The notes below the pieces were generated by a model. That model ran no database searches. It saw nothing but the letters and a program-made list of their open reading frames with translations, and was not told the origin of the DNA. DNA of 64,000 nucleotides, taken from Trypanosoma brucei. Taxonomy: Eukaryota. The stretch lies in assembly GCA_000002445.1 (NCBI GenBank), contig CM000207.1:192001-256000 (forward strand). Direction: 5' to 3'. Shown in pieces: positions 11,525 to 57,799 of this stretch (its first letter is position 1; each line of letters begins with the position of its first letter). Made by a program: the position numbers and the translations under genes.

Positions 11525-11601
11525 CCCTGGCGATGCCGGCCACCTCAACGTGGTTCCAGGGTCCAGTACCCCGTATCATCGGGGGAAGCCAAGAGCCAGC
11601 A
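11525..11601 (+). promoter_or_regulatory. Pr77 internal promoter / HDV-like ribozyme hallmark at the ingi 5' end.
   Basis: The first 77 nt match the conserved trypanosomatid retroposon 5' signature (established for L1Tc/ingi). The ORF ATG at 11533 lies inside it. Confidence 0.7.
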
Positions 11602-14600
11602 GCGTTCCTTTCATGGGGAACACTGCTTTGCTCCGGCTACAGCATCATACAGCACAAGGATCAGCAGCGTCTTGCTGGGACACCGTTTTTCATTTGTCGG
11701 TCCCTGGGCACGCGCCAGCGTACCATCAGCAGTATCATCCGCACTAAGATGCTGCTGTCCGGTGATGTGGAAGAGAATCCCGGCCCGTCGTTGCGCGGGA
11801 TGCAGTGGAACTGCGCCGGGCTATCTCAAGGAAAGAGATTAGCACTCCACAAAACCCTTGTTGATGAGCGGATCGCCTTTTGTCTGTTGAGCGAGACAAG
11901 GATGACGCCTGGAGAGGCGGCTTGCTTTAGCGTTGCTGGCTACCAACATCACGAAATAGCTCGTAACTGCAAAGGAGGTGGTGTATCAATACTAGTGAGG
12001 GAGGACCTACCAGTCGAGACCGGTATGGCCGTTGTTGGTCGCATTGAACAAGTGCATGCAACAATTCACCTTGCACGTGGAACGGCGCTGACTGTCACGT
12101 CGGCATACATCCCACCAAAACACACCTTCACGGCAACTGACCTAGATACGCTTCTGACGACTGACGGTGCCCAGCTCTCATCGGTGCAGACGCTAACGCA
12201 CACGCGTTGGCATGGGATCGCGCGAACCCACCAAATACCAAGGGTGAAACCCTCACACAGTGGTGCATTGACAACCAGTTTCTGGTCTGCAACACTGGTG
12301 AGTGCGCCATTTACACACGCCACCACGGGGAGTCCACCCCTGATGTGACACTGTCAAGGAATTGTACAGTGTACACGTGGACATCGCTGTATTCTCCCGA
12401 TAGCGATCACCATCACATATTTTTCGACGTTATCGTTGTAGACGACACAGATGCACTGAGTTGCCCGCGGCTTCGAAAGCCCATGTACGCATGGCTAAAA
12501 GCTAACTGGAGGAATTTCCGTCTCAAGGTTGACGAGCTCTGCAGGAAAATTGGTAGAGAGAAGAACGTCAACACCCTGGAACAGAAATTGAGCTCCGCCA
12601 TCCGCATTGCAACGAAGGTCTCCGTCCCCCGTGGCTGCAGAGTAACGCCACCACATTGGACACCTGAGCTCGCGAAACTCGATGAAGAGATCGCTGGATG
12701 CGGACCCTCCCACCGAAGGGAAAAGTTGGTAACCACGCGTAAGCAGATCCTGGACCGTACCACAAAGAAGAGATGGAGCACGCTATGCTCCAGACTTGCG
12801 GTGTCAGACCGCTGCAGTTGCCACATTGTCAAGAAGGTATATGCGCCACGACCACTAACCACACCGGCTGTACTTGTTGATAACGCGGCCATCACGGACT
12901 ACCGTCAAGCTGAGAGGTTCATTAAACTGTACTCGTCCCGCGCAAGAAGGCACCCCGACTCACACCCACCGGCACCAATAAAGACGATAGCGAGTGAGTT
13001 CAGTCTCATCACGATGGCTGAACTACGGAGATCGATCAAACTGCTACCGAGTGGATCCGCAGCCGGACCTGATTGCTTATACAACGAGGCACTGAACATC
13101 TCGGTAGAACAGCGCTGAATGTTGTTCTGAAGCTATTCTATGAAAACATACGAACGGGAGTCGTGCCGTCTGCATGGAAGATCGGTGTTATCATCCCCAT
13201 CCTGAATGCCGGAAAAAAGGCGGAGGACCTCGATTCTTACAGGCCTGTAACGCCCACGAGCTGTCTCTGCAAAGTCATGGAGCGCATAATTGCCGCGAGG
13301 CTTAGAGACACTGTTGAGTCCCAGCTGACGACGCAGCAATCAGGCTTTTGCCACGGATGCTCAACGCTCGAACAACTCCTGCACATCCGCGCTGCCCTCT
13401 GCCGTCCCACGCACCAATATCGTACGGGTGCTGTATTCGTTGACTACGAGAAGGCATTCGATACAGTAGACCACGACAAAATTGCGAGGAAAATGCACAG
13501 AATGAAGGTATCACCCCACATTGTGAAGTGGTGCGTATCATTTCTGAGTAACCGAACTGGCAGAGTGAGATTCAAGGAGAAGATTTCCAGCAGCAGAACA
13601 TTTGAGCGAGGAGTCCCACAAGGAGCTGTCCTTGGCCCAATCATGTTCATTATTGTCATGAACTCGTTGAGCCAGCGCCTTGCAGAAGTGCCGTTGCTGC
13701 AGCACGGATTCTTTGCAGACGACCTGACGCTACTTGCGAGGCACACAGAGAGGGATGTCATCAACCACACACTACAATGCGGTCTAAACGTGGTGTTACA
13801 GTGGTCAAAAGAGTACTTCATATCTGTCAACGTAGCGAAAACAAAGTGCACACTCTTCGGGTGTACAGAGCGCTATCACCTTACATTACAACTGGACGGC
13901 GAAAGAATAGGAGCTGACAGGACACCGAAGCTTCTAGGAGTAACATTCCAGTGTCTGCAGGGGATGGCAACACATGCGGCCGAAACGAGACGCAAGATGG
14001 ACTTCAGACTACTGCAGATAGCAGCCATCTCAGCTTCTACATGGGGGCCAAGACGACAAGTGTTGAGAGCTTTTCATCTGGAACTCGTACAGGCACACAC
14101 CATGTATGGCATTGAGGTATGGTACTGGGACGCTTCGAAACGAAATCGCGACCTCCTTGCATCAGCACAACACAAAGCCAGTCGCATCATAGCTGGCATA
14201 CCGCATGGGACGCGCAAAGAGGACTCTCTGCTGGAAGCAAACCTCCTGCCACTCAAGACGACCACTCTTGTGCGCAGCATGAAATTCATGCTGATGTGTG
14301 AGTCACGAGGCGGATGTTTGCGGCGCAGTGCTGAAGAAGTATACCACAGCAAACACCCAGTCAGAGTCTTACATTCCCGCATCATGCTGTCCTACCCCCA
14401 CCTCCGCATTGAGCCACGCGAGCAACCACTAGAGACATCGACGCTCCGCCACAGCTGCCGACCGCTATTTCACACGCAGATAAAGCCTGTGTGCGCTGAT
14501 GACCCTGACGATGTCAAAAGCGAGGCTTCCGAAAAGTGGATTGCACGGCATTTTGCACGGAGGGGGAAGGAGCCACAGCGGCGAGAGCACTACGAATTGT

Positions 14601-16507
14601 GGACTGATGGATGCGTGTCCCTCGGTGAGAAGTCCGGAGCAACTGCCCTGCTCTATAGAAACAACACGCTGATTTGCGCACCCAAAACTGGAGCAGGGGA
14701 ACTCTCATGCAGTTACAGAGCGGAATGCGTAGCATTAGAGATAGGACTGCAACGGCTGCTGAAATGGCTTCCGGCATACAGAAGCACACAGAGCAGGTTG
14801 TCCATCTTCTCTGACTCGCTGTCAATGTTAACAGCACTGCAGACAGGCCCCCTAGCCGTAACGGACCCAATTCTAAGACGACTATGGAGGCTTCTGCTTC
14901 AAGTTCAGAGAAGGAAGATACGTATCCGACTGCAATTTGTGTTTGGCCATTGTGGCGTGAAACGGAATGAGGTTTGTGATGAAATGGCCAAAAAGGCCGC
15001 AGATTTACCACAGTTGCGAGACACATGGATCCCCGACATCATTGCTTATGCGAAGCGAGTGCTTAGGTCGGAAGAAGTCCATGAGAACACTCATAGGTTT
15101 GGTATCACGGGCAACCACTTTACAACAAAACATAAGGAAGAACTGACGAGGGAAGAAGAAACGGCATTGGCACGCTTTCGGGTTGGGTCTTCAAGACACT
15201 ATGGATGGATGTTGCGAAAGATCAACCCGAGTGTGCCTCCACAGTGCCGATGGTGCAACCAGAAACATGCACCGATAGGACCAACAATACAAAAGGCCCC
15301 ACCTGTTGCGACACGCACTCTTCAGAGAACCTCCGAACCGACAAAATGTACGGAATGTGATGCCGCATACCAATGCCGCTCGAGTTCTGTAACGCACATG
15401 GTAAACAAACATGGCTTTGTGCGAGCTGATGCCCTCCGGAGGATCAAATACGGCGATGCAACACCCGCAGTGGATATCCCCCCGGAGCCCCCTCCAGTGG
15501 TGGCGATCGTTCCTCTACCATCGAACACACGAGTCCCGATGAGACCGCAGTTGCTTCATTGTACCATCTGTGCCTCCAAATTCGCAGTGCCAGGCCGACT
15601 ATTACACCACCTTAGAACAATACATGGCATAGGCAGCGGTAGTTGCCGCGTGAAAAGGGGGCGAGAGAACGAGGACTCATTGCAAGGAGATGGTAGAGCC
15701 CCAGCAGCGCCAGCCTCTCAGGATACACGGAAGCTGCCGTTTCAATGTGACCTGTGTGAGGCGAGTTTCGGTACACACTCTTCCCTGTCACTACACAAGA
15801 AATTCAAACATAAGAGCATAGTGACGGAGGACGGTACCGTGGTGGTGGTGCAATTCCCTCGTAAGCGTGCCCGTGAGGGAAACGTTGACGTGCCGGGGAA
15901 AGGCGAGGTGCAGTGTGGTGTGTGCCAAAAAGTGCTCAGTTGCAGGGACTCCCTCATCCGACACTGTAAGGCTTTCCACAAAGGTGAGGGTGTCGAGCTT
16001 AAATGCAGCAAAAGCAAAAAATTTTGTGCCACTGATTCCCCGCATACAAATGCATCCATGTTGGTGTGCCCGACATGCGGAAGGCAGTGTGCTAGCAAAA
16101 CTGGCCTCACCCTACATCAAAAGAAGATGCACGGTATGAAGGTAGAGCGCGCTGTTACCAGCCAACGCGGCGACTGTGAAGAAACGTCGCTGCACTCGAT
16201 GAGCTGTCCCGGTTTGAAGGAGTTACGTGTCAGGTTTGCGGTGGAAGGTGAGTGTGTGCAGGATATATGCTTCTCCAAAAGGCTGGCGCAGTTTCTCATT
16301 GCGGTTGAACGGAGCCGGCCGCAGGTGAAGTCCTCACCTAAGGTAACAGTCATACAACCCACTCTCCCTTCTGCAACTTCCCCCCTTATTGCCGAGTGTG
16401 GAGCTAGCAGGAAAAGCACCGGATGCAGGAATAGTCCAGACACCCTCAGAGACAGAGGGGGTATGCAGTCAACAAGCAACAAAAACATAAAAAGGGGGAG
16501 AGAATAA
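11533..16507 (+). pseudogene. ingi polyprotein ORF (endonuclease, RT, RNase H, C2H2 zinc fingers), disrupted by only two small indels (near 12180 and near 13085).
   Basis: ORF-track segments 11350-12348, 12207-13118 and 13073-16507. Comparison with the second copy suggests a +2 indel at about 12185 and a -1 indel at about 13087. The DVEENPGP 2A-like motif lies at 11764-11787. Confidence 0.85.
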
Positions 16508-16778
16508 TAAACGAATAACAAAAATCAAAACAAAAGGATTGCTAATTGACATCTTTGGGAGAGTCCGGAGTGGGGGGCTTCTCGCCCCATCTGCTGTATT
16601 CCGTTCAACTGCGGAGCTACAACAAAAATTATAGAGGGAGTGTTAGGATGAATAAAAAAGGGAGACTCTGCCACAGTCGCCAGATCGATAGCATCTCAGG
16701 GCTCTACGGTGATGGTTGATGGCCGCGCCAGTGGGGGGAAACTCTCACGAAGGCACGAAGAAAATTCCAAAAAAAAAA

Positions 16779-30889: not shown

Positions 30890-31125
30890 ACGTTATGTAT
30901 ACTAGATATTGTTATAATAGTAACAATAAGGATATTAGTATAGCAGGAGAGTGTTTTGAACGTGTGTATATACGAATATTATAATAAGAGCAGTAATGAT
31001 AAAAATAGTAATAATAATAATAATGATAATAATAATAATAATGATAATAATAATAATAATAATGATAATAATAATAGGAGAATGTTGTGAGAGAGTGCAT
31101 ATACGAATATTATAATAAGGGCACT
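30890..31125 (+). repeat. 70-bp repeat block (about 2–3 units).
   Basis: gcaggagagtgttttgaacgtgtgtatatacgaatattataataagagc ... (taa/tga)n ... ggagaatgttgtgagagagtgcatatacgaatattataataagg. Confidence 0.85.
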
Positions 31126-32854
31126 GGTGAAAAATAAATGGACAAAAAAGATAGAAGCAGTTAAAAACAATAGCGGAATGAAACTTTAGTAGCATGATGA
31201 AACCGAAACAAAGATTGTGAGATAGCACGATAAATATTATTTATGGGGGCGCGTGGAGATAGATGGAAAAGATAAAGACACGTAATTTTAAACACTAAGA
31301 TCAAGCTGGGAATTATCATACACAAGAAGATGATTGAGTGGACAATAAATGGAGAGAAAGTCGAATGCAGAATCAAAAATAGGTCACTTCGTTATCTGAA
31401 GAAGCTGAAAAAAAGGACAAAAAAGTAGAAACAAAAATATGATATGAAACAACGGAATGCGTGGAATAACATGGGACATAAAAAATAATACATCAAGACG
31501 AGCCACTGATACGCCATATTTAGCACAGAAATATATAGAGGCTACGGCGATGATGATGTTAGCGCCTGTAGGTTTTAATCTTATGGCAGTTTTTAATGTC
31601 CATTTAAAAAACCAAAAAAGTAGAAGCAGCAGATGCAGGAAGAGGGATTTAATAAGTGTAATGTAACGCGAAACTTTTCTTATCAGAAATAGTATGAAAG
31701 ATCAATATTTATGGACATCGATATAATGTTATCGGGAAAATGGTTTTAAAAATTGGAATACTAATGAATTACTGTGGCGAGCAGCAAAAGAATAAAAATA
31801 CGAATCCTTCAGGAAATGATACATATGAACACATAGAATATCTCTATGAAGTGGAGAAATTCAACGGTGATATTCCTCCAATTTTTTTTGGTATACGAGC
31901 CAGACACTAAAACCTTTGAAATAGCGAGCAATTCATATAAAAGTGGTCAGTAACCCCAAGTTGAAGTGGAGCATAAAGTAAGACAATAAGAGCAACGAAG
32001 GAACTTTCAGGAGGCAAAGTAACAATGCTTAAACGCCGGAGGGTACAAATAAACCAGGAATGAAATGAAGAATCAGACGAAACAGCGTTGTGATCATTTT
32101 CAACGCTGTTAAATTTTCATTCTGAAACAAAGCTAGAGCCGTAAAGTGGAACCAAATAGAAACCATTGCAACGCGTAAATGATATATCTTTAAAATTTGG
32201 ATAAACCTCTTTCACAGTAAAAAGTGAACATTGTTGAGCTTAACGGAGTTCTTTATTACGTCTCGACCCTTACAAACAAATATGAAAAACATAGAATCGT
32301 TTGACGCGAACCAATGAAGCGACCAAATTTTGTATATTTCCATTTTTCCACAGTTTTTTATTCTTACTTGGGGACGTCCAGCCGTCCGGATGTTTATTTA
32401 TAGCGCCGCCCTTAATCTTAAAGCTAACTTTTCAGGTGAGAAGTAAGGCAGAAAGGATAAATTTTAATCATTCACCGGCTGTTGATGATGACGCTGGCGC
32501 TGATTGAGCAGCCCGGAGTGCAGCCAAAGGGGTGGATGATCTTTTTGTGCCTATTTTGCAAATAAGACGGACCAACTTCGTACACCACAAAAAGAGACCC
32601 AACAAGAACGTACCAGTTACATCCCTATTAGGTAATCATCTTCTAGTGGAGAGTGCAGCGCGGATGTAGCCAGCAGTGGCAGCGCTAGTCAGCAGAAAAG
32701 AGTTCTGACCGTTAAAACTACAAGCACCACACGGTGCGGGATTAAACTATATCGAAGTAATCGAAAACAGAAACTAGCGCACGTAATGACTCAAGCAAGA
32801 AACACTAAGCCACAGCAATGGTAACGCCAATTCGAGTATTTCAATTTCAAAAAT

Positions 32855-34381: not shown

Positions 34382-34599
34382 TACTTCTAAAAATTATTGG
34401 TAAAATACTTTCGCTTCATTTTATTACATCTATAAAATATGATAATTTGAGAAAAATTATCTAAAATTGTAATATATGCTAACCCTTTTCGATGAAAATA
34501 TGCAAATTAGAAAAAATAAAAAATAAATTTCAATAATATGTATATCATAGTGGTATGTGGGTGTAAAGTAGGATGGTAAAACGCTGTAAAAAGTGAATT

Positions 34600-34700
34600 C
34601 TCTTATAATTTTTTTGCTTTTCATGTATGTTATAAATAATAATAATTATTATTATTAATAATGATGGTGCAAGAAGAGACGTGAACGTGCACTTCTTAAT
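34600..34700 (+). repeat. Degenerate 70-bp repeat.
   Basis: tataaataataataattattattattaataatgatggtg..., lacking a good GTGAGTGTGTATATAC tail. Confidence 0.55.
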
Positions 34701-36248
34701 ATTATTTTAAAAGTGGTAGTAAAAATCTAATAAAAGGTAAAAGAAAGCGCTTCTAATTGGCGTACAGATACTATGGGGTAGTTGAGTGATTTAGCGTTAA
34801 AAAAGAAATATTATTAAAGGAAACTTTGAACGATAGAGAAAAAATGGAATATGCTGGTTCTCAAATACAAATATGGTAATAAAAATTATTATACATGAAG
34901 AGGTGATGGGTGTAAAATGAGAGAGAGGATACTCCAGCGCAAAAATCAAGTGAAACCATTATGTTTTCCGAGTAAAGGGCTGCAAAAGATGACAGAAAAA
35001 TAAAGAAAATCTTCAGTGAAACAACTAGATGCACAACAACAAAGTGCATAGAATTTAACAGCTAAAGAGCTTACAAGTCGTTTTAAAGCTGGGTTTATCT
35101 TCAGATGTAAGAAAGTAGGGAAGTAGCGCTCGAAAATGGAGCTGATGATGGGAACCAAGATTGAAGCAACAACAAAAACAGTAGTGAAATAGAAGAATCA
35201 TATGTGCCAAGCTTAAATGCACAGAAAATAAGGGAGACCAAGGTAAAACTAAAAGGGTAGTTGCATTACAAGATAGTAGACAAACGGTTAGCATTAGTTG
35301 CACTACACTCAAGTTGATTTGGTAAGTTACTAGATAGAAGAGAGAATTTATTACCTTGTATAAGTGGTCACGTGAAGGTGTTAAAATACCATTCAAACAG
35401 GATATTTAATAAATCATACTTGAAGCTGCTGACAACTAATAAACTTGTGTTAATCATATCAAGCATATGGTACCGTATAGATTTTACCTGCCGTGAATAT
35501 TTCATCCATATTCTAGTTTTTTAAAGTTTAATTTTTAAAGGAACCAAAACAGACACCACGCAGAAGAAGAGACACAAACAATTGGATTGCGCTTGCGGAA
35601 TATGCCATAAGCCTATACAGCGAGTCGGAGTAACAACGGAATCTACGCTACATGCAACTATCCGAAAGAAAAAGCACCATGGCGATGCCGAGCAATGCAT
35701 AAAATGTGTTTTCAAAAACACTTCCAGAAACATCCAAGAAAAAGTTTGGCTATAGTCGTCCCCACAAAGCAAAAGACGTGGTGGCAGTCAGATTAACGCA
35801 AACATGGTTGAAACTCACCTGTAACAAAGCATTAGAAGCGGAAAATAGAGACATGATAATGGCATGGTAACACTTTTCCGTCCGCCATTCTATTTACATA
35901 TCAACAGCAGTGGCGGCTTTTTAGTGTATGCGTGCCAGGTGGAAAAAGGAAGAGAGATACGCCAGGTAGGTCGACAAATCTATTAAAGAAAAAACCATGA
36001 CTGTGTCGACAATGACGCAGCAACTCTGGAAATTTATTACTAAAATTGATAAATCAACGGCAGTAACTGCGTGAGACTTAGGCACATATCCTTACCAATC
36101 CTCGAGCAGCCTTTCACGACTCAAACCACAAGTAGACAACAAAACCTAACCGTTCATTCATATAGCCAAGTAAAGGAACGCAACACCAACAACAAGATAG
36201 TGGAGACAGTCCCCAAGCTCTCCTAGGGAGGCAACGCAAATTGAAACG

Positions 36249-37568
36249 ATGAAGCTTGCAATAGCGTTAGCAACCACCTTAGTGTTGCATGCAGACGTAG
36301 TTGTAACAGATGACTCAACCGTGGAAGGAGCTCTGTCGGGGCCAGCGCTAGGCGCATTATGCGATATAGCACATGATCTCAAGCTTTCACCCAACAAGCT
36401 AAAACAACAATTGCTCAGCAAAACGGAGCAGCTGTTGGACCTGAACCTCAAGCTGAGAATCCTCGACACCTACGACACCTTCGACGACAACACCAAAGCG
36501 GCAATACAAGCTTTACACACGATTCTAACTAACGAAATACTAAACCATTGTAGCGATTTCGAGGCAGCAGCAGGAAAAGAAGTAGTGGCAGCAGAAGCAG
36601 GTGCGTATTGGGCTGGACACATGGACGAGCTGGCACACGTAGCACACCAGCTTACGACAGACACAAGCGACACAGCGGGAACTAACTGCCTCTCGGCAAC
36701 GAGCACAGGCGATAACCAAGGAAACGGCATCAAACACGACGCTCCACTAACGGCGGGCGGCCTATAACGCTGCGCAGAAAACTTCAATCCCAGCCACGGC
36801 GAAACAGTCGGAGAAATCTTAACTGTCAATAAACTAAAAGCAGTAGCATCACAATCCGGCATCTACACGAAAGTCATGGCCAGAACCGACAAATGTCCGC
36901 TAACAAAGTACGACACAGACTCTTTCTATCAAAATGGAGCTTCCCTGACCAAGCTGACTTTTGCAGGGGGAGCGATATCAATGAACAACCCAACAGCGTG
37001 TGCCGTTCCAACAGCTCAGACGCTAGGGATCACGGAAACAGGCACCAGATACGAGCCAATACTGAGCACAGCCCTACACACCGCACTAACGGAGGTCGAC
37101 AGCGCAACCAAACAACTGGGCGGCATCGAACTAGGGGCAACGGCACTCCTCAAGGAAGATGGCTTTGAAGAGGCAAAGACTAACCAAGAAATACAAGCGG
37201 CGCTACACCCTTCTGAGGATGTCAAAACGAAATACTCGAGCGGAATGCCTCAAACAAGCAAACCAGCTTTTGACAGGCTAGTAAAACTTTATAAGGAATT
37301 GGAAGACAAGGTCGAAAAGATAAAACAGGATACCAACCAGGATGCCGCCATACGAAGGCTCTATAAACCCTTGATAAGCTGCAGTAGGGGCCCGGAAGCA
37401 CAGAAAAAAGTGGAGACAACATCAGTATGCGAAGATAAGGAACAAAATGCGTGCTGAGTTATGGAGGGTGATTATGGAAGGGCTCCTAGTGCAAATAAAA
37501 AGGAAAAAAAGATTCCTTTTTCCTTGTAAATAAGAAATTTTCTCTCTTTACTTCTTCGGCTTTTGTGA
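36249..37568 (+). pseudogene. VSG pseudogene. The N-terminal domain sits in one frame with an in-frame TAA (36765-36767). The C-terminal domain is very short or truncated, and the GPI signal is frameshifted.
   Basis: Signal peptide MKLAIALATTLVLHA, ORFs 36249-36767 and 36876-37457 share a frame, and SFFLVNKKFSLFTSSAFVSVEAY* follows in another frame. The 16-mer-like taatatattataccgc lies at about 37666. Confidence 0.7.
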
Positions 37569-37789
37569 GCGTGGAAGCATATTAGTAATTTAAGAATTTT
37601 TTCTCAATTTTGTAAATTTATGAATTTTACTAAAATTTGCTACTTTGAGAGAATTTAATATATTATACCGCTATTGTAAAGTTTTTTTTAACAAATGAAA
37701 ATTATTAAAATTTAAAAATACATAACTTTTTGTATGTGAATAACCTATCGGTAAAAATTAGTAGAGTGATAGTATAGCAAAAATGGGTG

Positions 37790-37885
37790 CTATCTCAATT
37801 TGTTTATTTTATGGATTTTACTTGGGGTTATAATAACAACAATAGGAGAGTGTTGTGAGTGTGCATATACTAATATTTTAATATT
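37790..37885 (+). repeat. 70-bp repeat unit.
   Basis: caacaataggagagtgttgtgagtgtgcatatactaatattttaat. Confidence 0.85.
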
Positions 37886-40426: not shown

Positions 40427-40526
40427 NNNNNNNNNNNNNNNNNNNNNNNNNNNNNNNNNNNNNNNNNNNNNNNNNNNNNNNNNNNNNNNNNNNNNNNNNN
40501 NNNNNNNNNNNNNNNNNNNNNNNNNN
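40427..40526. other. Assembly gap (100 N).
   Basis: Run of n characters. Confidence 1.
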
Positions 40527-46959: not shown

Positions 46960-47050
46960 ATATATTTTCGTTAGGGTCATAATAATATTGATAATGAAAA
47001 TGGTAATTTTGATAGAGAGTGTTGTGAGTGTGCATATACTAATATTCGGA
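46960..47050 (+). repeat. 70-bp repeat unit.
   Basis: ggtaattttgatagagagtgttgtgagtgtgcatatactaatattcgg. Confidence 0.8.
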
Positions 47051-48000
47051 GTGGTAATGAAGACTGAGTAAAAGGTTTATTAGTGAAACTTGAAACAATG
47101 GCATTGGTGGTATTTTGCAGGTTGGTGAGTGGGAGTGGGAGGGAATATGAAAATTTTTGTTGATAAAACCTGGAGAGACAAAGAGGAATAGAGATAGAAC
47201 TTGAGAATTTTCAATTGCAAAAATGACGACGTGTATCACGACACACAAGGAGATTATGCAGGGAGCAGTGAAGCACAAGCTGAGTTCAGTGTGCAGGGCA
47301 AATTTGGTTGCTACGGCATGCAAAGAAGAAGCAGCAGCAGACGAAATATTTAAAAACAAAATATGGAAAGAAAAACAGAATGCGCGACAGTATACCGAAC
47401 TACGGATTAAAATAAAATTTTAGGAGTATGAGAAGGTGAGTCACAGTATTTTACACAGAAATGAATAGAACCAGCAGCCCAGCTTGTAAGATCTGTAGTC
47501 TTTATTGCTTTTGCAGCCTTCTAATGCTAGAAAGAGTGAATGGCAGTTATTTATAGAATGAATATAGTTTTTTTACTTCATCAGCGAACTAAGATAGCGC
47601 GAGGAAGCAGCGCTTTGATATCGCAGGAGAAGATATCCTCGGAACATTGTAAGAAATGTTAATAAAAATTTGAAATATTAAAACACGGATAGGAAACCGC
47701 TTAAACAGCAACCATAAACACAAGCCAACACGTAGCTTCCGTCAAACCTCATGGAAAATATGCGACAACACAGCAGACATTAAGAAACTGAAAATGGAAA
47801 CAAACACGTCGCTTTCATCTTTGCGGAGACAGCAAAGCAAAAAAAAAAACTGCCCAAACTAACCTGTTGCAGAAGCAAATCGTAATTTACGGTAACAAGT
47901 GTAGTACCGGACAGAAATATAGTACCACTAAACATGGAGCCTGGTGCTTACTAAGCCTTTAGAGGAGCAGACCAAATTCACTGGCACAGGCGTACAGATA

Positions 48001-49093
48001 ATGCTAGGCCAAGCGGCGTTATTAATTGTCTTAACATCGGGGCTAACATTGGCAACAAAGGTGGAAATACAGCATGCTCACCTTTTAAAAGCCTGCAGTG
48101 TAGCAGGCGAATTTAGCTCAATGGCCGGCCACGCGGCCAATGAAATCAGCAGGCTTCTAACGAATTCACAGCAACTGTGGGAATTGGCAGACGACCTTAT
48201 AGCTGTTGTTCGCGACGACATTAACTCAAACGTAACGGCAATAGCCATACTAGCAGAAATAGCGCGAAAGGAAGCGATAGCTGCAACTACAACTGTAAGC
48301 GACAACCTAGACAGCACCATAAAGCTCGCGGCAATGGCGGCGCAGCTCGCGGGAAATATACAAGAGGCTGCGCATATAATAGTAAATTCAGCGAACAGCC
48401 GTAACAGCGAATGTCTCAGCAGCACAGCCGGCTTCACACCAGTAGCACTCAGCGCCGCAGCAACACCCGGATGCCTCAAAAGCGGCGGCGACTACGAGGA
48501 TTTTACCTGGAACAAAAATAAAGTGAACCTCACATTCGAAACGACGCTCAACAGTCTACTGGCAGACAGTGCAGACGAAATAAGCGTCTCGGGCACAACC
48601 TGCAAGCTGCTACACGCCGCCGGGGAACGCAGCACAACTGGCGGCGACTCTAAACCCATAATGGCAGGTCTTATCAGACTGGGAGCAGCTGCCAGCAATC
48701 CGATCAAATGGGATGAAGGGAAAACACTGGCCAAAGACAGTAACTCCCGGTTCGGGCAAATCAAAGCTCAACTCAAAGCATTAAATGCGGCACTCAGCAG
48801 CGAAAGCAAATGTCAAACGCAACTAATTCAGCTCACGACACAGGACAGCGTCGATGGGCCGGTCGTAGAAATCGACAAAGGCACAATCACTAAATCGTGG
48901 CCGCCGGCAAAGCAAACCATAACAGCAAAAACAACAGATCAAATCCGAAAGTTAAAAAAATACCGCAAGGTTAAAAGCGAAGCACAAATGGCCGAAGCTC
49001 GGGCAGCCTCATTCAGAAAAACAGCGCTTCTCAACGTAGAAGCCTGCGAATTAGGATTCACGGCACTAAAACAGACAACTTCCGACGTAACAA
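48001..49093 (+). pseudogene. VSG truncated at its 3' end by an inverted ingi. The N-terminal domain ORF is otherwise open.
   Basis: MLGQAALLIVLTSGLTLATKVEIQHAHLLKACSVAG..., with no internal stops until it runs into the ingi poly(T) junction at 49094. Confidence 0.8.
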
Positions 49094-49463
49094 TTTTTTT
49101 TTGGAATTTTCTTCGTGCCTTTGAGAGAGTTTCCCCCCACTGGCGCGGCCATCAGCTATCACCGTAGAGCCCTGAGATGCTATCGGTCTGGCGACTGTGG
49201 CAGAGTCTCCCTTTTTAATTAAGCCTAACACTCCCTCTATAATTTTTGTTGTAGCTCCGCAGTTGAACGGAATACAGCAGATGGGGCGAGAAGCCCCCCA
49301 CTCCGGACTCTCCAAAAGATGTCAATTAGCAATCCTTTTGTTTTGATTTTTGTTATTCGTTTATTATTCTCTCCCCCTCTTTCTGTTTTTGTTGCTTGTT
49401 GACTGCATACCCCCTCTGTCTCTGAGGGTGTCTAGACTATTCCTGCATCCGGTGCTTTTCCTG

Positions 49464-52400
49464 CTAGCTGCACAGTCGGATAAGGAGAGAAGTTGCAGAA
49501 GGGAGAGTGGGTTGTATGACTGTTACATTAGGGGAGGACTTCACCTGCGGCCGGCTCCGTTCAACCGCAATGAGAAACTGCGCCAGCCTTTTGGAGAAGC
49601 ATATATCCTGCACACACTCACCTTCCACCGCAAACCTGACACGTAACTCCTTCAAACAGGGACAGCTCATCGAGTGCAGCGACGTTTCTTCACAGTCGCC
49701 GCGTTGGCTGGTAACAGCGCGCTCTACCTTCATACCGTGCATCTTCTTTTGATGTAGGGTGAGGCCAGTTTTGCTAGCATACTGCCTTCCGCATGTCGGG
49801 CACACCAACATGGATGTGTTTGTATGCGGGGAATCAGTGGCACAAAATTTTTTGCTTTTGCTGCATTTAAGCTCGACTCCCTCACCTTTGTGGAAAGCCT
49901 TACAGTGTCGGATGAGGGAGTCCCTGCAACTGAGCACTTTTTGGCACACACCACACTGCACCTCGCCTTTCCCCGGGACGTTAACATTTCCCTCACGGGC
50001 ACGCTTACGAGGGAATTGCACCACCACCACGGTACCGTCCTCCGTCACTATGCTCTTATGTTTGAATTTCTTGTGTAGTGACAGGGAAGAGCGTGTACCG
50101 AAGCTCGCCTCACAAGGTCACATTGAAACGGCAGCTTCCGTGTATCCTGAGAGGCTGGCGCTGCTGGGGCTCTACCATCTCCTTGCAATGAGTCCTCGTT
50201 CTCTCGCCCCCTTTTCACGCGGCAACTACCGCTGCCTATGCCATGTATTGTTCTAAGGTGGTGTAATAGTCGGCCTGGCACTGCGAATTTGGAGGCACAG
50301 AGGGTACAATGAAGAACCTGCGGTCTCATCGGGACTCGTGTGTTCGATGGTAGAGGAACGATCACCACCACTGGAGGGGGCTCCGGGGGGATATCCACTG
50401 CAGGTGTTGCATCGCCGTATTTGATCCTCCGGAGGGCATCAGCTCGCACAAAGCCATGTTTGTTTACCATGCGCGTTACAGCACTCGAGCGGCATTGGTA
50501 TATGGCATCACATTCCGTACATTTGGTCGGTTCGGAGGTTCTCTGAAGAGTGCGTGTCGCAACAGTTGGGACCGTTTGTATTGTTAGCCCTATCGCTGCA
50601 TGTTGCGGGTTGCACCATCGGCACTGTGGAGGCACACTCCGGTTGATCTTTCGCAACATCCATCCATAGTGTCTTGAAGACCCAACCCGAAAGCGTGCCA
50701 ATGCCGTTTCTTCTTCCCTCGTCAGTTCTTCCTTATGTTTTGTTGTAAAGTGGTTGCCCGTGATACCAAACCTATGAGTGTTCTCATGGACTTCTTCCGA
50801 CCTAAGCACTCGCTTCGCATAAGCAATGATGTCGGGGATCCATGTATCTCACAACTGTGGTAAATCTGCGGCCTTTTTGGCCATTTCATCACAAACCTCA
50901 TTCCGTTTCACGCCACAATGGCCAAACACAAATTGCAGTCGGATACGTATCTTCCTTCTCTGAACTTGAAGCAGAAGCCTCCATAGTCGTCTCAGAATTG
51001 GGTCCGTTACGGCTAGGGGGCCTGTCTGCAGTGCTGTTAACATTGACAGCGAGTCAGAGAAGATGGACAACCTGCTCTGTGTGCTTCTGTATGCCGGAAG
51101 CCATTTCAGCAGCCGTTGCAGTCCTATCTCTAATGCTACGCATTCCGCTCTGTAACTGCATGAGAGTTCCTCTGCTCCGGTCTTGGGTGCACAAATCAGC
51201 GTGTTGTTTCTGTAGAGCAGGGCAGCTGCTCCGGACTTCTCACCGAGGGACACGGATTCATCAGTCCACAATTCGTAGTGCTCTCGCCGCGGTGGCTCCT
51301 TCCCCCTCCGTGCAAAATGCCGTGCAATCCACTTTTCGGAAGCCTCCCTTTTGACATCGTCAGGGTCATCAGCGCACACAGGCTTTACCTGCGTGTGAAA
51401 TAGCGGTCGGCAGCTGTGGCGGAGCGTCGATGTCTCTAGTGGGTGCTCGCGTGGCTCAATGCGGAGGTGGGGGTAGGACCGCATGATGCGGGAATGTAGG
51501 GCTCTGACCGTATGTTTACTGTGGTATACTTCCTCAGCACTGCGGCGCAAACATCCGCCTCGTGACTCACACATCAGCATGAATTTCATGCTGCGCACAA
51601 GAGTGGTCGTCTTGAGTAGCAGGAGGTTTGCTTCCAGCAGAGAGTTCTCTTTGCGCGTCCCATGCGGTATGCCGGCTATGATGCGACTGGCTTTGTGTTG
51701 TGCTGATGCAAGGAGGTCGCGACTTCGTTCCGAAGCGTCCCAGTACCATACCTCAATGCCATACATGGTGTGTGCCTGTACGAGTGCTAGATAAAAAGCT
51801 CTCAGCACTTGTCGTCTTGGCCCCCATGTAGAAGCTGAGATGGCTACTATCTGCAGTAGTCGGAAGTCTATCTTGCGTCTCGTTTCGGTCGCATGTGTTG
51901 CCATCCCTTGCAGACACTGGAATGTTACTCCTAGAAGCTTCGGTGTCCTGTCAGCTCCTATTCTTTCGCCGTCCAGTTGTAATGTAAGGGGGTGGCGCTC
52001 TATACACCCGAAGAGTGTGCACTTTGTTTTCGCTACGTTGACAGACATGAAGTACTCTTTTGACCACTGTAACACCACGTTTAGACCGCATTACAGCGTG
52101 TGGTTAATGACATCCCTCTCTGTGTGCCTCGCTAGTAGCGTTAGGTCGTCTGCAAAGAATCCGTGCTGCAGTAACGGCACTTCTGCAAGGCATTGGCTTA
52201 ACGAGTTCATGACAATAATGAACATGATTGGGCCAAGGACAGTTCCTTGTGGCACTCCTCGCTCAAATGTTCTGCTTCTGGAAAGCTTCTCCTTGAATCT
52301 CACTCTGCCAGTTCGGTTACTCAGAAATGATACGCACCACTTCACAATGTGGGGTGATACCTTCATTCTGTGCATTTCCCTCGCAATTTTGTCGTGGTCT

Positions 52401-54334
52401 ACTGTATCAAATGCCTTCTCGTAGTCAACGAATACAGCACCCGTACGATATTGGTGCGTGGGACGGCAGAGGGCAGCGCGGACGTGCAGGAGTTGTTCGA
52501 GCGTTGAGCAACCGTGGCGAAAGCCTGATTGCTGCGGCGTCAGCTGGGACTCAACAGTGTCTCTAAGCCTCGCGGCAATTATGCGCTCTATGACTTTGCA
52601 GAGACAGCTCGTGAGCGTCACAGGCCTGTAAGAATCGAGGTCCTCCGCCTTTTTTCCGGCCTTCAGGATGGGGATGATAACACCAGTCTTCCATGCAGGC
52701 GGCACGACTCCCGTTCGTAGGCTCTCATTGAATAGCCTCATTACAACATTCAGCGCTGTTCTACCGAGATGTTGTAGTGCCTCGTTGTATAAGCAATCAG
52801 GTCCGGCTGCGGATCCACTCGGTAGCAGTTTGATCGATCTCCGTAGTTCAGCCATCGTGATGGGACTGAACTCACTCGCTATCGTCTTTATGGGTGCCGG
52901 TGGGTGTGAGTCGGGGTGCCTTCTTGCGCGGGACGAGTACAGTTTACTGAACCTCTCAACTTGACGGTAGTCCGTGATGGCCGCGTTATCAACAAGTACA
53001 GCCGGTGTGGTTAGTGGTCGTGGCGCATATACCTTCTTGACAATGTGCCAACTGCAGCGGTCTGACACCGCAAGTCTGGAGCATAGCGTGCTCCATCTCT
53101 TCTTTGTGGTACGGTCCAGGATCTGCTTACGCGTGGCTACCAACTTTTCCCTTCGGTGGGAGGGTCCGCATCCAGCGATCTCTTCATCGAGTTTCGCGAG
53201 CTCAGGTGTCCAATGTGGTGGCGTTGCTCTGCAGCCACGGGGGACGGAGACCTTCGTCGCAATGCGGATGGCGGAGCTCAATTTCTGTTTCAGGGTGTTG
53301 ACGTTCTTTTCTCTACCAATTTTCCTGCAGAGCTCGTCAACCTTGAGACGGAAATTCCTCCAGTCAGCTTTCAGCCATGCGTACATGGGCTTTTGAAGCC
53401 GCGGGCAACTCAGTGCATCTGTGTCGTCTCCAACGATAACGTCAAAAAATATGTGATGGTGATCGCTATCGGGAGAATACAGCGATGTCCAAGTGTACAC
53501 TGTGCAATTCCTTGACAGTGTCACATCAGGGGTGGACTCCCCGTGGTGGCGCGCGTACCTGGTGCACCCACCAGTGTTGCAGACCAGAAACTGGTTGTCA
53601 ATGCACCACTGTGTGAGGGTTTCACCCTTGGTATTTGGTGGGCTCGCGCGATCCCATGCCAACGCGTGTGCATTAGCGTCTGCACCGATGAGCTGGGCAC
53701 CGTCAGTCGTCAGAAGCGTATCTAGGTCAGTTGCCGTGAAGGTGTGTTTTGGTGGGATGTATGCCGACGTGACAGTCAGCGCCGTTCCACTTGCAAGGTG
53801 AATTGTTGCATGCACTTGTTCAATGCGACTAACAACGACCATACCTGTCTCGACTGGCAGGTCCTCCCTCACTAGTATTGATACACCACCTCCTTTGCAG
53901 TTACGAGCTATTCCGTGATGTTGGTATCCAGCAACGCTAAAGCAAGCCGCCTCTCCAGGCGTCATCCTTGTCTCGCTCAACGGACAAAAGGCGATCCGCT
54001 CATCAACAAGGGTTTTGTGGAGTGCTAATCTCTTTCCTTGAGATAGCCCGGCGCAGTTCCACTGCATCCCGCGCAACGACGGGCCGGGATTCTCTTCCAC
54101 ATCACCGGATAGCAGCATCTTAGTGCGGATGATACTGCTGATGGCACGCTGGCACGTGCCCAGGGACCGACAAATGAAAAACGGTGTCCCAGCAAGACGC
54201 TTCTGATCCGTGTGCTGTATGATGCCGTAGCCGGAGCACAGCAGTGTTCCCCATGAAAGGAATGCTTCTGACTCTTGGCTTACCCCGATGATACGGGGTA
54301 CTGGACTCTGGCACCATGTTGAGGTGGTCGGCAT
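49464..54334 (-). pseudogene. ingi polyprotein ORF, degenerate, with multiple frameshifts or stops.
   Basis: Four ORF segments cover the endonuclease, RT, RNase H and zinc-finger regions. The DVEENPGP coding sequence lies at 54080-54103 on the - strand. Confidence 0.85.
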
Positions 54335-54342
54335 CGCCAGGG
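54266..54342 (-). promoter_or_regulatory. Pr77 hallmark at the 5' end of the inverted ingi.
   Basis: The reverse complement matches the copy-1 5' end with a few substitutions. Confidence 0.7.
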
Positions 54343-54438
54343 TGTTGAATTGAAGGCAAGCGTCAGGATTCCAGTCTCCTGGTCCATAAGAAATTGTTTC
54401 TGAGTATGGATGCTACTTTTGTAGCCTTGGTGTTTTAA
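54343..54438 (+). pseudogene. VSG C-terminal and GPI-signal remnant immediately flanking the ingi 5' end.
   Basis: QDSSLLVHKKLFLSMDATFVALVF* (stop 54436-54438), followed by a 3'UTR with a 16-mer-like gtgaagtactttaacat at about 54508. Confidence 0.7.
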
Positions 54439-54639
54439 AGTTAATGAAAATTTTTATAATATTCTCAAATTTGCTATTTTCAGAGAATTTTATAAAAATT
54501 CTAAAATGTGAAGTACTTTAACATTTTTTAATGAAAATGTACAAATTTGTAAATGAGTAAGAGAGTGGCTTAAAGATACAAAGTAATAGGGTATGAAAAT
54601 TGAGCACAATTATAAACTCGTTTATTTTGTTTTTTTATG

Positions 54640-54725
54640 GATATCAGTAATAGTTATGATAATTAAAATAATAATAACAGGAGAGTGTCGTGTGCGTGTA
54701 TATACTATTATTATAGTATGAGTGT
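54640..54725 (+). repeat. 70-bp repeat unit.
   Basis: aataataataacaggagagtgtcgtgtgcgtgtatatactattattatag. Confidence 0.8.
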
Positions 54726-56352
54726 TATTGAAGCACGACTGGAAAATCTTTTTTTTAAGGTGCGGATTGATGACCATCGTGGCCACCATGTTCCAGCGAA
54801 GAGGAAGAAATGCGTTTATGCAGGCCGTGATACATGACATAAGACTGTTGGAATCAGCCTTTGAGAACGAGCCACTGCCCACTAAAACCCTCTTAAGTGA
54901 ATATTATTTTCAACCCAGTTCACCAGTACATGGCGACCATGATTCACACGTTGGTCTAAAGGGACGGTATCCAGTGCAGCCCGCTATCCCTTCCTATATC
55001 CACTGTGGCATATCACCCTGTGAATTCACCACCAGCTATACGGCTAATGGCGTGTATACGACTTCGATGGGTTCCCCCTGGACAGAGTACTAAACAGAGG
55101 AAAATGAAGTTGAAACTTATTAGCGAGTTCATTTGCGCTGCATACATATAAATATCTTCAACATCCACAAGTGCACTCACGCTGCCACAATAGAGATCAC
55201 TTACTGCGGCCGATATGCCAGTGTTCATGTGGTAATAATTAGCTTCCGCAGAAAATTTAATTTTTTTTCTGTACTAAACTCTGGCACTACAATGAGGATG
55301 CAACCACTAACGACGGGGATATTAAGTGTTCTAAATACAAGTGTTAAAAGCTATATTTTTAGAGTTAAATAAGGAGGTTATTTGCGTTAAACTGCGTTCT
55401 TGTTGGCAACTTCTTCACCATGCACAGCACTTGAAACAGCCTTCAAAACTTAGAGAATTAAACTGACAGCAAAACAAGTAGGCGCTTCGAAATTGGATTA
55501 TAAAAAATTAGAGCAGAATTTTAAAAAGAGGATAAGATAGAATCGGTTAGAATTACCAACGGCATTTTCGACTTTAGATGGCAATGGAACGCAACAAATA
55601 AAGTGCGTCACGGAGAGACAGACTCCCAGCATAACGCGGTGGCAACGGCGATTCGAAGCTAAAAAAAACATCAAATAAAACCCGGGGAAAAGACATGACT
55701 ATAAACTTTGTAAAACCTCCGCTACCTCGGCGGTACGCGCTCCATCAGGCCAACAAGACCATTAATAATGCAGCGACTCCCGTCGCCCGTAATCGTATTT
55801 ACCAAAATAAACGACAGAAAAGACCTTGCTCAGCATCTTTTTATTAGATCAAGCGCGGAGAAGCGGTTGAAATCCAATCAAAAGCAAACGGACAACAATA
55901 AGCAATACCACACCACGAAACATAACTGTAGTTAAGCCAAAATTGTTTTTTTTAGAAGATATTGCAACAACTCAACTCACGACGCAAGATCACCTTGGAA
56001 CAGACCAATTTTTTTTTGAAGGCAGGCGGTGAAGCTCCACCGGCAACCGCATTGAATACTTTTTTAGGCGCTCACAACGGCACCTGTATGCACTGCACTG
56101 TTTTACAGGTCGTGACGCCGGCCAGATGAGGGGCTGCATGACGACGATCACTGCTGTGCGTGAAGTTGACGACAGCGGAACCGAAAAAAACAAACTGAAT
56201 CAGACCATTACAAACCAAACAGTCAGAGAGCAAAAGAACTCACCTGACAAACGGCAGTACGAAAGTTGCTGCGCAAGCGATGGCGACTTGACAACAAAAA
56301 ACAAAGCAACAAACTCTGCCCTCTAAAATTATATCACTAGGAAGAAGCAACG

Positions 56353-57799
56353 ATGCTGCAACGCGCAAGCGGCAACCGAAGTGTGCCAAAAGCCTTACTA
56401 CTAGCCGCAGCGCTGGCGGCACTAATTTTAAACCAAGGAAGCACCGTCGACACCCAAGAAGCCAAACAGGGAGATGCCTGCAGTGCTGCGATTTACATAA
56501 TGGAGCTAGAAAATTCGATAGAAGACCAACGCGACAAGCTCATCAGCGAAATATCAAAATCAAACCAACACCTGCTTCACCTAGAGGCAGCGCTGGCACT
56601 ACCTCAATGGAAAACGAAATCAACTGCATTAACACCGCTGATAGGGCTAGTACTTGCAGAACATCAGAAGCTGATTTCAAAACTCGCGGCATGCAACACA
56701 GCAGCAACAGCGGCCGAACAGTCGGCCAATATCCAAGCAGGACGAAACTGGGCGGTCGCAGAACTAGCGGAAATTACAACGGCCTCGTCTGCAGAACGGC
56801 AGCAAGCACGTTAAGCGCCGGCGAAAAGGTACAAGATACGGCGACATTCGAGACAATACACGGCGAAACGTGCACTAACAAAGCTACTGGCGAGCTCAAA
56901 CAGGCGGCATCAGGTGTAGACATATCGGAACTCAAAACGCTAACCCTGTTCAAACTAAAACAACACTCAACGGACGCAAACCGGCAAATTTGCTTGGGAC
57001 ACTGCGACAGGCAAGGGACCGCATGCACGACGACGGCAACAAACCACAAAACGAAAACACAAAGCAAGAAATTTCTCGAAGAAGACAAGTCAGAAACGAT
57101 CGATATGCAAGCATCAACGCACAGCCAACCAAAAGCAGCAAGAGCGGAAGAAAACGGAAAAACGTATCTCAAAGCCCACAAGCGCCACCTTAACTGGCGT
57201 CTATACAACTTCAACCTAAACAAACCCTGCAAAGCAACGTACACAAGCCTAGACAAAGCGGCCACGACACAAACGAATGAGCCACTACGGCGCAGTGTAC
57301 TAGCAGTCATAAAAGGCCCGAACGAAAAATACGACACAGACAGCAAAGAGCAGCAGAAAGTAATCAATACCTTTATCGAATCAAACTATGGCAAAGAAGA
57401 AAGCGACTTTAAAGAAAAGGTATGGAATAAAATAAGAAAAACTGATTTTTCTCACAGTATAGGAGGCAAAGACTTCAAAGGCAAGATTGCCGCTATCAAA
57501 AATAGTGATCATATAACAATAGCAATTGGAGCAAGTGGATATACAGCTCCAACAGGCAAAGAGTGCAAAGAAACATCCGTACAGGCCAAACCAACAATAG
57601 AAAAATGCAAGCCAGACACAGAAAAAAGTAAATGTACAGCAGATAAAGATTGCGAACACAGCGATGGCAAATGCAAACTTAAAGAGGGAGTAAAAAAGAG
57701 AATGATGCAAAAACTACAAACACCACAGGAATCAATTCTCTTGTCATTAATAAGGCTCCTCTTTTGCTTGCGGATTTGTTTATATTGCTAGGTTTCTAA
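56353..57799 (+). pseudogene. VSG pseudogene with frameshifts near 56800 and near 57700.
   Basis: MLQRASGNRSVPKALLLAAALAALILNQG signal, N-terminal domain ORF 56607-57791, C-terminal domain CKPDTEKSKCTADKDCEHSDGKCK, and GPI signal NTTGINSLVINKAPLLLADLFILLGF* in an alternate frame. Confidence 0.75.

What the first reader, a model, noticed from the sequence alone, without database searches (positions are those of the whole stretch)
49094..54438. Inverted ingi replaces most of a VSG C-terminal domain, again without a TSD
The second ingi is inserted antisense into a VSG whose N-terminal domain (48001-49093) is still an open frame. Only the last ~25 codons of the VSG (GPI signal, 54343-54438) remain on the other side, so about 60 codons of C-terminal domain are missing. 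The flanks, TTGTTACGTCGG on the 3' side in element orientation and ...TTCAATTCAACAC on the 5' side, are not duplicated. The two ingi copies are inverted and about 32 kb apart. That geometry allows inversion of the intervening nine VSG cassettes by homologous recombination. I tested the reciprocal-flank prediction of such an inversion (copy-1 5' flank against copy-2 3' flank, and the converse) by eye. I found no match, so a simple inversion between these two copies is not supported.
Basis: partly seen in the sequence, partly recalled or inferred. Interest (0 to 1): 0.55.

Follow-up and report, generated by a model that had tools for sequence, protein, structure and literature searches.

The report
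TSD-less ingi retroposon in VSG array
A full-length but dead ingi retrotransposon lies backwards between the front half of one trypanosome coat-protein (VSG) pseudogene and the tail of a VSG, and its two junctions most likely come from separate events later joined by recombination, which is an ordinary feature of these gene arrays.

Summary
The window is Trypanosoma brucei brucei TREU927, from a subtelomeric VSG array on a 3.06-Mb contig. A full-length ingi (5,249 bp) lies antisense at 49094-54342. It carries endonuclease, reverse transcriptase, RNase H and zinc-finger domains, and its reading frame is broken into at least four pieces. An A-type VSG N-terminal domain (48001-49093, open frame) lies on its poly(A) side. 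The last ~26 codons of a VSG plus its 3'UTR (54343 onward) lie on its 5' side. There is no 12-bp target-site duplication, and no reciprocal flank match with the inverted copy at 11525-16777.

The reading "one insertion replaced ~60 codons" is only partly supported. About 80 or more codons would be missing. More importantly, the two junctions appear to have separate histories:
- A T. equiperdum paralogue shares the cassette from near the 70-bp repeat through the same VSG|poly(A) junction to the ingi 5' end, then has an unrelated flank.
- A 365-aa database VSG ends at the same junction codon.
- The 5' flank matches the ingi insertion signature in register (6/10, p≈0.03).

Best explanation: a recombinant ingi formed by homologous recombination or conversion between two insertions. 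Ingi/RIME-mediated rearrangement is already described. Interest is low.

The parts
46975..47050 (+). 70-bp repeat marking the upstream edge of the VSG cassette that contains the interrupted VSG
   Evidence: The repeat core GAGAGTGTTGTGAGTGTG lies at 47015-47032 with no mismatches (sequence). High identity to the T. equiperdum paralogue begins about 165 bp downstream, at 47217.
47217..48000 (+). Upstream region of the VSG cassette, shared with the T. equiperdum paralogous locus
   Evidence: Identity to L001 is 94-98% in 150-bp bins. It falls to noise to the left of 47200.
48001..49093 (+). A-type VSG N-terminal domain (flank L2). It is an open frame of 364 codons and belongs to the Lister 427 VSG-1689 family. 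It has no C-terminal domain. The frame runs on for another 24 codons (the first, ATT, straddles the junction) into ingi antisense sequence before a stop at 49165-49167.
   Evidence: PF00913, E=6e-12. It is 98% identical to VSG 1689 (M4SW14). It is 98% identical to P0009, which ends at the junction codon.
49094..54342 (-). Full-length ingi non-LTR retroposon (copy 2), 5,249 bp, with an A9 tail at 49094-49102. It is non-autonomous because its ORF is broken.
   Evidence: Inverted repeat with copy 1; 96.6% identity along the full length. Pfam matches: Exo_endo_phos and RVT_1 (52094-54334), RNase_H (50852-52078), zf-C2H2 (49467-50048). The frame is interrupted by in-frame stops at element positions ~2250 and ~3492 and by a 1-bp deletion at alignment column 4230; a 2-bp deletion at column 4866 lies at the end of the last piece.
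54343..54438 (+). VSG C-terminal end with GPI signal (flank R2), degenerate, with an in-frame TGA at its second codon. Its first 12 nt (TGTTGAATTGAA) would be the expected target-site duplication of the insertion that created the ingi 5' junction.
   Evidence: It matches PF10659 positions 79-104 of 104 (E=7e-4, 20.3 bits against a 21.4-bit cut-off). The 5' flank scores 6/10 against the ingi4 signature in register, background p=0.031.
54439..54720 (+). VSG 3'UTR-like sequence and the 70-bp repeat of the next cassette
   Evidence: blastn similarity to the regions downstream of other VSGs in the window. A degenerate 70-bp core lies at 54681-54698.
11525..16777 (+). Inverted partner ingi (copy 1), full length, also without a target-site duplication. 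Its 5' flank lies in a VSG GPI-signal region and its 3' flank lies in the signal-peptide region of another VSG.

Best explanation
Copy 2 is a recombinant (flank-swapped) ingi. Its two junctions were made by two different retrotransposition events.

(1) An old antisense insertion occurred at the end of the N-terminal domain of a VSG-1689-family gene. That junction has since been propagated as part of a cassette running from the 70-bp repeat, through the upstream region and N-terminal domain, to the ingi.

(2) A separate canonical, endonuclease-mediated antisense insertion occurred about 96 bp upstream of the stop codon of a VSG (R2). Its expected target-site duplication is TTCAATTCAACA in element orientation.

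Homologous recombination between the two ~96%-identical elements then joined L2 to R2 through a single chimeric ingi. This could have been an unequal crossover or deletion within the array, or a gene-conversion tract that started near the 70-bp repeat and ended inside a resident ingi. Either route removes both partner duplications and everything between the elements, including any C-terminal domain.

Shown: the anatomy; the absence of a duplication; the age and spread of the 3' junction; the different 5' flank in the paralogue; and the signature match at the 5' flank.

Inferred: that recombination, rather than the insertion itself, removed the C-terminal domain, and which type of recombination it was. 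The crossover point cannot be mapped without the parental copies.
For: - T. equiperdum locus L001 aligns with window 47217-54342 (7.1 kb, 93.7%). The junction is the same (...GACGTAACA|A-T(n)). Identity collapses exactly at the ingi 5' end, beyond which L001 carries unrelated sequence with a weak galactosyltransferase-like match (below the Pfam cut-off).
- The VSG part is only 70-90% identical, whereas the upstream region is 94-98% and the ingi ~96%. L001 is therefore a paralogue, and the junction predates the duplication.
- P0009, which sits in the same 90% cluster as Lister 427 VSG-1689, is 98% identical to L2 and stops at the junction codon.
- The 5' flanks of both window copies match the published Tbingi (ingi4) upstream signature, AxxxxxxxTxxxGTxGGxTxxx^xTxTxxTxxxxx (PMC3820030), at 6/10 positions. 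The match is best at offset 0, with a background P(>=6) of 0.031 each. A target-site deletion would have removed that motif.
- Copy 1 in the same array shows the same pattern: no duplication, and flanks from two different VSG genes.
- The literature reports a conserved 12-bp duplication for Tbingi/TbRIME (PMC3820030). [quoted passage not shown]
Against: - No parental locus was found. That would be the R2 partner ending ...TGTTGAATTGAA|poly-T, or the L2 partner beginning with the duplicated ...CGACGTAACA.
- No uninterrupted relative of the VSG was found.
- The three ingi copies form a star-like tree. There is no resolvable identity breakpoint, and c2 and the T. equiperdum copy share no ORF-breaking lesion. 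The chimeric nature of the element body is therefore not demonstrated.
- L2 and R2 are collinear: same strand, with the N-terminal domain before the GPI tail. That is also what a single insertion with a local deletion would leave.
- The signature match is modest (p≈0.03), and the rate at which true sites reach this score was not calibrated here.
Confidence: 0.6

Rival explanations
1. A single insertion with a target-site deletion. One ingi integrated antisense into one VSG. Aberrant second-strand cleavage or repair deleted about 250-300 bp of C-terminal-domain sequence instead of duplicating 12 bp. The T. equiperdum paralogue lost the R2 side in a later rearrangement.
For: L2 and R2 are on the same strand and in gene order. 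Together they look like one VSG lacking only its C-terminal-domain core. No duplication is present. Target-site deletions during target-primed reverse transcription are well documented for mammalian L1 (my own knowledge, not tested here).
Against: - The recognition motif should lie inside the deleted segment. Instead, the retained 5' flank matches the signature in register.
- The paralogue with the same 3' junction has a different 5' flank, so at least one ingi-bounded rearrangement is needed anyway.
- Copy 1 shows the same absence of a duplication with flanks that cannot belong to one gene.
Confidence: 0.22
2. Assembly chimera. The reference assembly joined reads from two different ingi loci inside the 5.2-kb repeat, so the L2-ingi-R2 arrangement does not exist in the genome.
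For: The window is a scaffolded, Sanger-era subtelomeric region with two 100-N gaps, at 11210-11309 and 40427-40526. The ingi is longer than a read. The R2|ingi-5' junction has no independent confirmation.
Against: Ingi copies differ at about 1 site in 25-30, which is enough to keep Sanger reads apart. There is no abrupt change in divergence pattern along copy 2. The L2 junction is confirmed independently in T. equiperdum and by P0009. T. equiperdum also has a duplication-less ingi at this cassette.
Confidence: 0.08
3. Endonuclease-independent insertion. An ingi cDNA was captured at a double-strand break in a fragile VSG array, which gives no duplication and a local deletion.
For: There is no duplication. 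Subtelomeric VSG arrays are recombination-prone (my own knowledge).
Against: The element is full length, with precise 5' and 3' ends and a poly(A) tail. The 5' flank carries the endonuclease signature. The different 5' flank in the paralogue is not explained.
Confidence: 0.05

Closest known systems
Tbingi (ingi4 subclade) non-LTR retroposon of T. brucei, canonical insertion
   Same: It is 5.25 kb long, with a CCCTGGCG... 5' end and a poly(A) tail. It carries APE endonuclease, RT, RNase H and C2H2 zinc-finger coding capacity. It is ~96% identical to other copies, and its 5' flank partly matches the ingi4 upstream signature.
   Different: It lacks the conserved 12-bp target-site duplication. Its ORF is broken, so it cannot be autonomous.
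Retroelement recombination-mediated rearrangement (ingi/RIME rearrangements noted in the T. b. gambiense genome paper, PMC2854126; analogous to Alu/L1 recombination-mediated deletion in mammals)
   Same: A single element without a duplication is flanked by sequences that were not adjacent at either original insertion. The same junction occurs with a different opposite flank at a paralogous locus.
   Different: The parental elements and the breakpoint inside the element were not identified here, so the assignment is inferential.
VSG cassette duplication bounded by 70-bp repeats upstream and 3' homology downstream
   Same: The block shared with the T. equiperdum paralogue starts about 165 bp downstream of the 70-bp repeat and covers the whole upstream region and the VSG.
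   Different: The downstream boundary is the 5' end of an ingi, not the VSG 3' end or 3'UTR. The cassette carries no C-terminal domain.
L1 insertions with target-site deletions
   Same: No duplication, and target sequence is missing between the flanks.
   Different: The endonuclease signature is retained in register at the 5' flank, and the 5' flanks of paralogues differ. This has not been tested experimentally for ingi.

Membership tests
ingi (Tbingi, ingi4 subclade) non-LTR retroposon | Full-length element of about 5.2 kb with the conserved 5' signature and a 3' poly(dA) tail | tested here: met
   It is 5,249 bp long. Its 5' end, CCCTGGCGATGCCGACCACCTCAAC, is identical in register to copy 1 and to the T. 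equiperdum copy. It has an A9 tail. The comparison with the published 79-bp signature sequence itself relies on my memory.
ingi (Tbingi, ingi4 subclade) non-LTR retroposon | Coding capacity for AP endonuclease, reverse transcriptase, RNase H and a C2H2 zinc finger | tested here: met
   Pfam matches to Exo_endo_phos_2, RVT_1, RNase_H and zf-C2H2_4 on consecutive minus-strand ORF pieces. The frame is interrupted, so the copy is defective.
ingi (Tbingi, ingi4 subclade) non-LTR retroposon | Flanked by a 12-bp target-site duplication (PMC3820030) | tested here: not met
   The best match is 5 of 12 at offsets 0-3. The cross-copy flanks match at no more than 4 of 12. This is a property of a fresh insertion, not of the element sequence, so failing it argues for a later rearrangement and not against the element being an ingi.
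ingi (Tbingi, ingi4 subclade) non-LTR retroposon | Preceded by the ingi4 signature AxxxxxxxTxxxGTxGGxTxxx^xTxTxxTxxxxx | tested here: inconclusive
   It matches 6 of 10 specified positions, with the best score at offset 0. The background P(>=6) is 0.031 across the window. This is suggestive, but it was not calibrated on true insertion sites.
VSG gene (A-type N-terminal domain plus C-terminal domain plus GPI signal) | A-type N-terminal domain | tested here: met
   PF00913, E=6e-12. It is 98% identical to Lister 427 VSG 1689.
VSG gene (A-type N-terminal domain plus C-terminal domain plus GPI signal) | Cysteine-containing C-terminal domain joined to the N-terminal domain | tested here: not met
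   Only PF10659 positions 79-104 are present, on the far side of the ingi. It is a truncated pseudogene or gene fragment.
Inversion by recombination between inverted repeats | Reciprocal exchange of target-site duplications between the two copies, and inverted gene orientation between them | tested here: not met
   There are no reciprocal flank matches. All 70-bp repeats and VSGs inside and outside the pair are on the plus strand.

The most novel reading that the evidence does not exclude
The ingi acts as the portable downstream homology block of a VSG cassette that lacks a C-terminal domain (70-bp repeat, upstream region, N-terminal domain, ingi). That cassette has been copied between subtelomeric loci and kept in T. 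brucei strains and in T. equiperdum, with an N-terminal domain that is still open in some copies. If so, retroposons would not only interrupt VSGs. They would also define the conversion boundaries that spread N-terminal-domain-only donors usable for mosaic VSG formation.
Probability: 0.25. Interest if true: 0.4.

Novelty: already known. Interest (0 to 1): 0.15.

Why it matters
Its importance is limited. Ingi elements in VSG arrays are part of the published T. brucei TREU927 reference, and ingi/RIME-mediated rearrangement has been described.

The useful result is a correction. The missing C-terminal domain should not be read as evidence of an unusual integration mechanism without a target-site duplication. 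The two inverted copies show no sign of having inverted the 32-kb segment or of recent gene conversion.

A minor point of interest is that the VSG|ingi junction is old. It travels with the cassette, and this suggests that ingi copies can serve as recombination boundaries in the silent VSG archive.

Tried and rejected
- Reciprocal-flank (inversion) test: negative. Strand consistency of the 70-bp repeats also argues against an inversion.
- Identity breakpoints and gene conversion between the two window copies: differences are spread fairly evenly. The longest identical run is 205 bp (p=0.12).
- Three-way comparison with the T. equiperdum ingi to locate a crossover: the tree is star-like, with no shared ORF-breaking lesions. 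Uninformative.
They returned only truncated relatives or distant paralogues.
- Exact-protein contig look-ups for window ORFs, junction-spanning ORFs, P0001, P0003 and P0009: nothing was on record. The TREU927 proteins looked up, including P0003, were not on record in that tool.
- Rfam scan of 48800-54800: no matches.
- Short-C-terminal-domain explanation: rejected. No cysteine-containing C-terminal-domain segment exists between the end of the N-terminal domain and PF10659 position 79.
- Bringaud et al. 2004 (PMID 14694076) and the paper requested as PMC1950905 (intended as Marcello & Barry 2007) are not held. The published frequency of ingi copies without a duplication could not be cited.
Full report
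**Source and context.** Two intact VSG ORFs in the window (32897-34381 and 29099-30550) are exact matches to XP_803401.1 and XP_803400.1 of Trypanosoma brucei brucei TREU927, on a 3.06-Mb contig. From memory this is chromosome 9, but that was not verified. The window is a subtelomeric silent VSG array. Cores of the 70-bp repeat recur every ~3-5 kb, all on the plus strand. AT skew is positive throughout, except inside the antisense element. There are two 100-N assembly gaps, at 11210-11309 and 40427-40526.

**Checking the observation.** An inverted-repeat search finds one 5.25-kb pair, 11525-16777 and 49094-54342. Alignment gives 96.6% identity over the full length with only seven indel columns. 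These are the only ingi sequences in the window.
- Copy 2 is antisense. Its 5' end, CCCTGGCGATGCCGACC..., is the reverse complement ending at 54342. Its A9 tail is the T9 run at 49094-49102.
- Its minus-strand ORF pieces carry Exo_endo_phos/Exo_endo_phos_2 plus RVT_1 (747 aa), RNase_H (409 aa) and zf-C2H2 (194 aa).
- The frame is interrupted by two in-frame stops and a 1-bp deletion, and a 2-bp deletion lies at the end of the last piece. It is therefore a full-length but defective ingi.
- The left flank, 48001-49093, is an open 364-codon A-type VSG N-terminal domain (PF00913, E=6e-12). It is 98% identical to Lister 427 VSG 1689.
- The right flank, 54343-54438, translates to C*IEGKRQDSSLLVHKKLFLSMDATFVALVF*. 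This matches positions 79-104 of the 104-position VSG C-terminal-domain profile (E=7e-4, 20.3 bits, just below the 21.4-bit cut-off). It is followed by sequence similar to other VSG 3'UTRs and by a 70-bp repeat.
- There is no target-site duplication. The flanks match at no more than 5 of 12 positions at any offset from 0 to 3. The reciprocal comparisons with copy 1 match at no more than 4 of 12.

The element ends at 54342, not 54438. The missing C-terminal portion would be about 80 codons or more, not ~60.

**Inversion and conversion between the two copies.** In addition, every 70-bp repeat inside and outside the pair is on the plus strand, so the intervening 32.3 kb is not inverted relative to its surroundings. 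Differences between the copies are spread along the whole element. The longest identical run is 205 bp, which is not unusual for 179 differences (p=0.12). There is therefore no sign of recent gene conversion between them.

**Related sequences elsewhere.** The protein search with the N-terminal domain returned only two close relatives, both truncated. One, from T. equiperdum (GCA_003543875.1, CM010675.1), could be fetched with its flanks as locus L001.
- L001 aligns with window 47217-54342 over 7.1 kb at 93.7%.
- The alignment starts about 165 bp downstream of the 70-bp repeat in both loci. It then covers the upstream region (94-98% identity), the VSG N-terminal domain (70-90%) and the whole antisense ingi (~96%).
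- Identity collapses exactly at the ingi 5' end.
- The VSG|poly(A) junction is at the same nucleotide in both...CTTCCGACGTAACA|A-T9 in the window and ...CTTGCGACGTAACA|A-T6 in L001.
- Beyond the ingi 5' end, L001 has unrelated sequence: a weak galactosyltransferase-like fragment (below the Pfam cut-off), then another VSG pseudogene. It too lacks a duplication.
- The VSG part is far more diverged than orthologues between these taxa normally are (one search gives a mean of 99.2% coding identity for T. b. gambiense against T. b. brucei). L001 is therefore a paralogue, and the junction predates the duplication that separated the two cassettes.
- A further database protein, P0009 (UniParc UPI0002C1882E), is in the same 90% cluster as VSG 1689. 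It is 98% identical to the window's N-terminal domain over 365 residues and stops at the codon formed across the junction (...TTSDVTI).

The 3' junction is thus old and has been propagated, while the 5' flank is not part of the conserved unit.

**Insertion-site signature.** Published work gives a conserved 12-bp duplication for Tbingi/TbRIME. It also gives an upstream signature, AxxxxxxxTxxxGTxGGxTxxx^xTxTxxTxxxxx, with the first-strand nick at the caret (PMC3820030). The 34 nt upstream of copy 2 (in element orientation) match 6 of the 10 specified positions, and so do those upstream of copy 1. In both cases the best score is at offset 0. Only 3.1% of all window positions score 6 or more. The T. 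equiperdum flank scores 4/10, which is not significant.

In target-primed reverse transcription the recognition motif ends up at the 5' junction. A target-site deletion would remove it. The retained in-register motif therefore modestly favours R2 being the 5' junction of a normal insertion whose 3' duplication partner was lost later.

**Explanation.** The most economical reading is that copy 2 is a recombinant ingi. An old insertion at the end of the N-terminal domain of a VSG-1689-family gene supplies the 3' junction. A separate insertion near the 3' end of a VSG supplies the 5' junction. Homologous recombination between the two elements joined them and eliminated both partner duplications and the intervening DNA. 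This could have been a crossover causing a deletion, or a conversion tract running from the 70-bp-repeat region into a resident ingi.

Copy 1 fits the same pattern. Its 5' flank stops about 12 codons before a VSG stop codon, inside the GPI signal (compare the paralogue at 10255-10421). Its 3' flank starts inside the signal-peptide region of a different VSG. About 2 kb of inter-cassette sequence is absent, and there is no duplication.

**What is not shown.** I could not find either parental locus, an uninterrupted relative of the VSG, or an orthologous locus in another strain (and the failed look-ups). The three available ingi copies form a star-like tree. They show no breakpoint and no shared inactivating lesion, so the chimeric nature of the element body is inferred and not demonstrated.

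The main rival is a single insertion into one VSG with a deletion of ~250-300 bp of target sequence, followed by a separate rearrangement in the T. equiperdum lineage. It remains possible because L2 and R2 are collinear. An assembly chimera inside the repeat cannot be excluded for the R2 junction, which has no independent support.

**Verdict.** Nothing here points to a new integration mechanism, and there is no evidence of an inversion. The only mildly interesting lead is that an ingi may act as the downstream boundary of a duplicated VSG cassette that lacks a C-terminal domain.

Noticed in passing
window 11525-16777 and flanks 11310-11524 / 16778-18133: Copy 1 also lacks a target-site duplication. 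Its 5' flank ends inside the GPI-signal region of a VSG, about 12 codons before the stop (compare the paralogue at 10255-10421). Its 3' flank begins in the signal-peptide region of a different VSG with a 451-codon open frame. The ~2 kb that normally separates two cassettes is therefore missing. Its 5' flank also scores 6/10 on the ingi4 signature.
   Followed up: partly
window 11210-11309 and 40427-40526: There are two 100-N assembly gaps. The first lies between a 70-bp repeat fragment and a VSG C-terminal-domain fragment, only ~215 bp upstream of ingi copy 1, so the left-hand context of copy 1 is incomplete.
   Followed up: no
window ~53692 (element position ~650 of copy 2): Copy 2 has a 2-bp deletion relative to copy 1 and to the T. 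equiperdum copy. The deletion fuses the first two reading frames into one 749-codon frame. The other two copies share a frameshift there. All other ORF-breaking lesions are private to each copy.
   Followed up: partly
window 49093-49167: The open frame of the VSG N-terminal domain reads on through the poly-T tail into ingi antisense sequence for 24 further codons (IFFWNFLRAFERVSPHWRGHQLSP*). This gives a chimeric 388-codon ORF. Related database proteins either stop earlier (VSG 1689 at 324 aa; the T. equiperdum fragment is cut by a stop) or are trimmed at the junction (P0009).
   Followed up: partly
L001 16013-20621 (T. equiperdum CM010675.1): The ingi 5' flank in the paralogous locus is non-VSG sequence. 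It contains a weak galactosyltransferase-like fragment (PF01762, E=2.8e-4, below the cut-off), followed by a VSG pseudogene with a complete C-terminal domain.
   Followed up: partly
window 56353-57791: The next VSG downstream is split into two overlapping frames (56353-56814 and 56607-57791), so it is a frameshifted pseudogene. Its nearest database relatives are a TREU927 paralogue (86%) and an EATRO1125 VSG (89%).
   Followed up: partly
window 31100-37800: No 70-bp-repeat core was detected between 31078 and 37846, although about two VSG units lie in that interval. One cassette may have a degenerate upstream repeat or none.
   Followed up: no
window 16778-18133: The 451-codon open frame to the right of copy 1 has VSG-like 3' end similarity at the DNA level. 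It gave no Pfam hit at E<=0.01.
   Followed up: no
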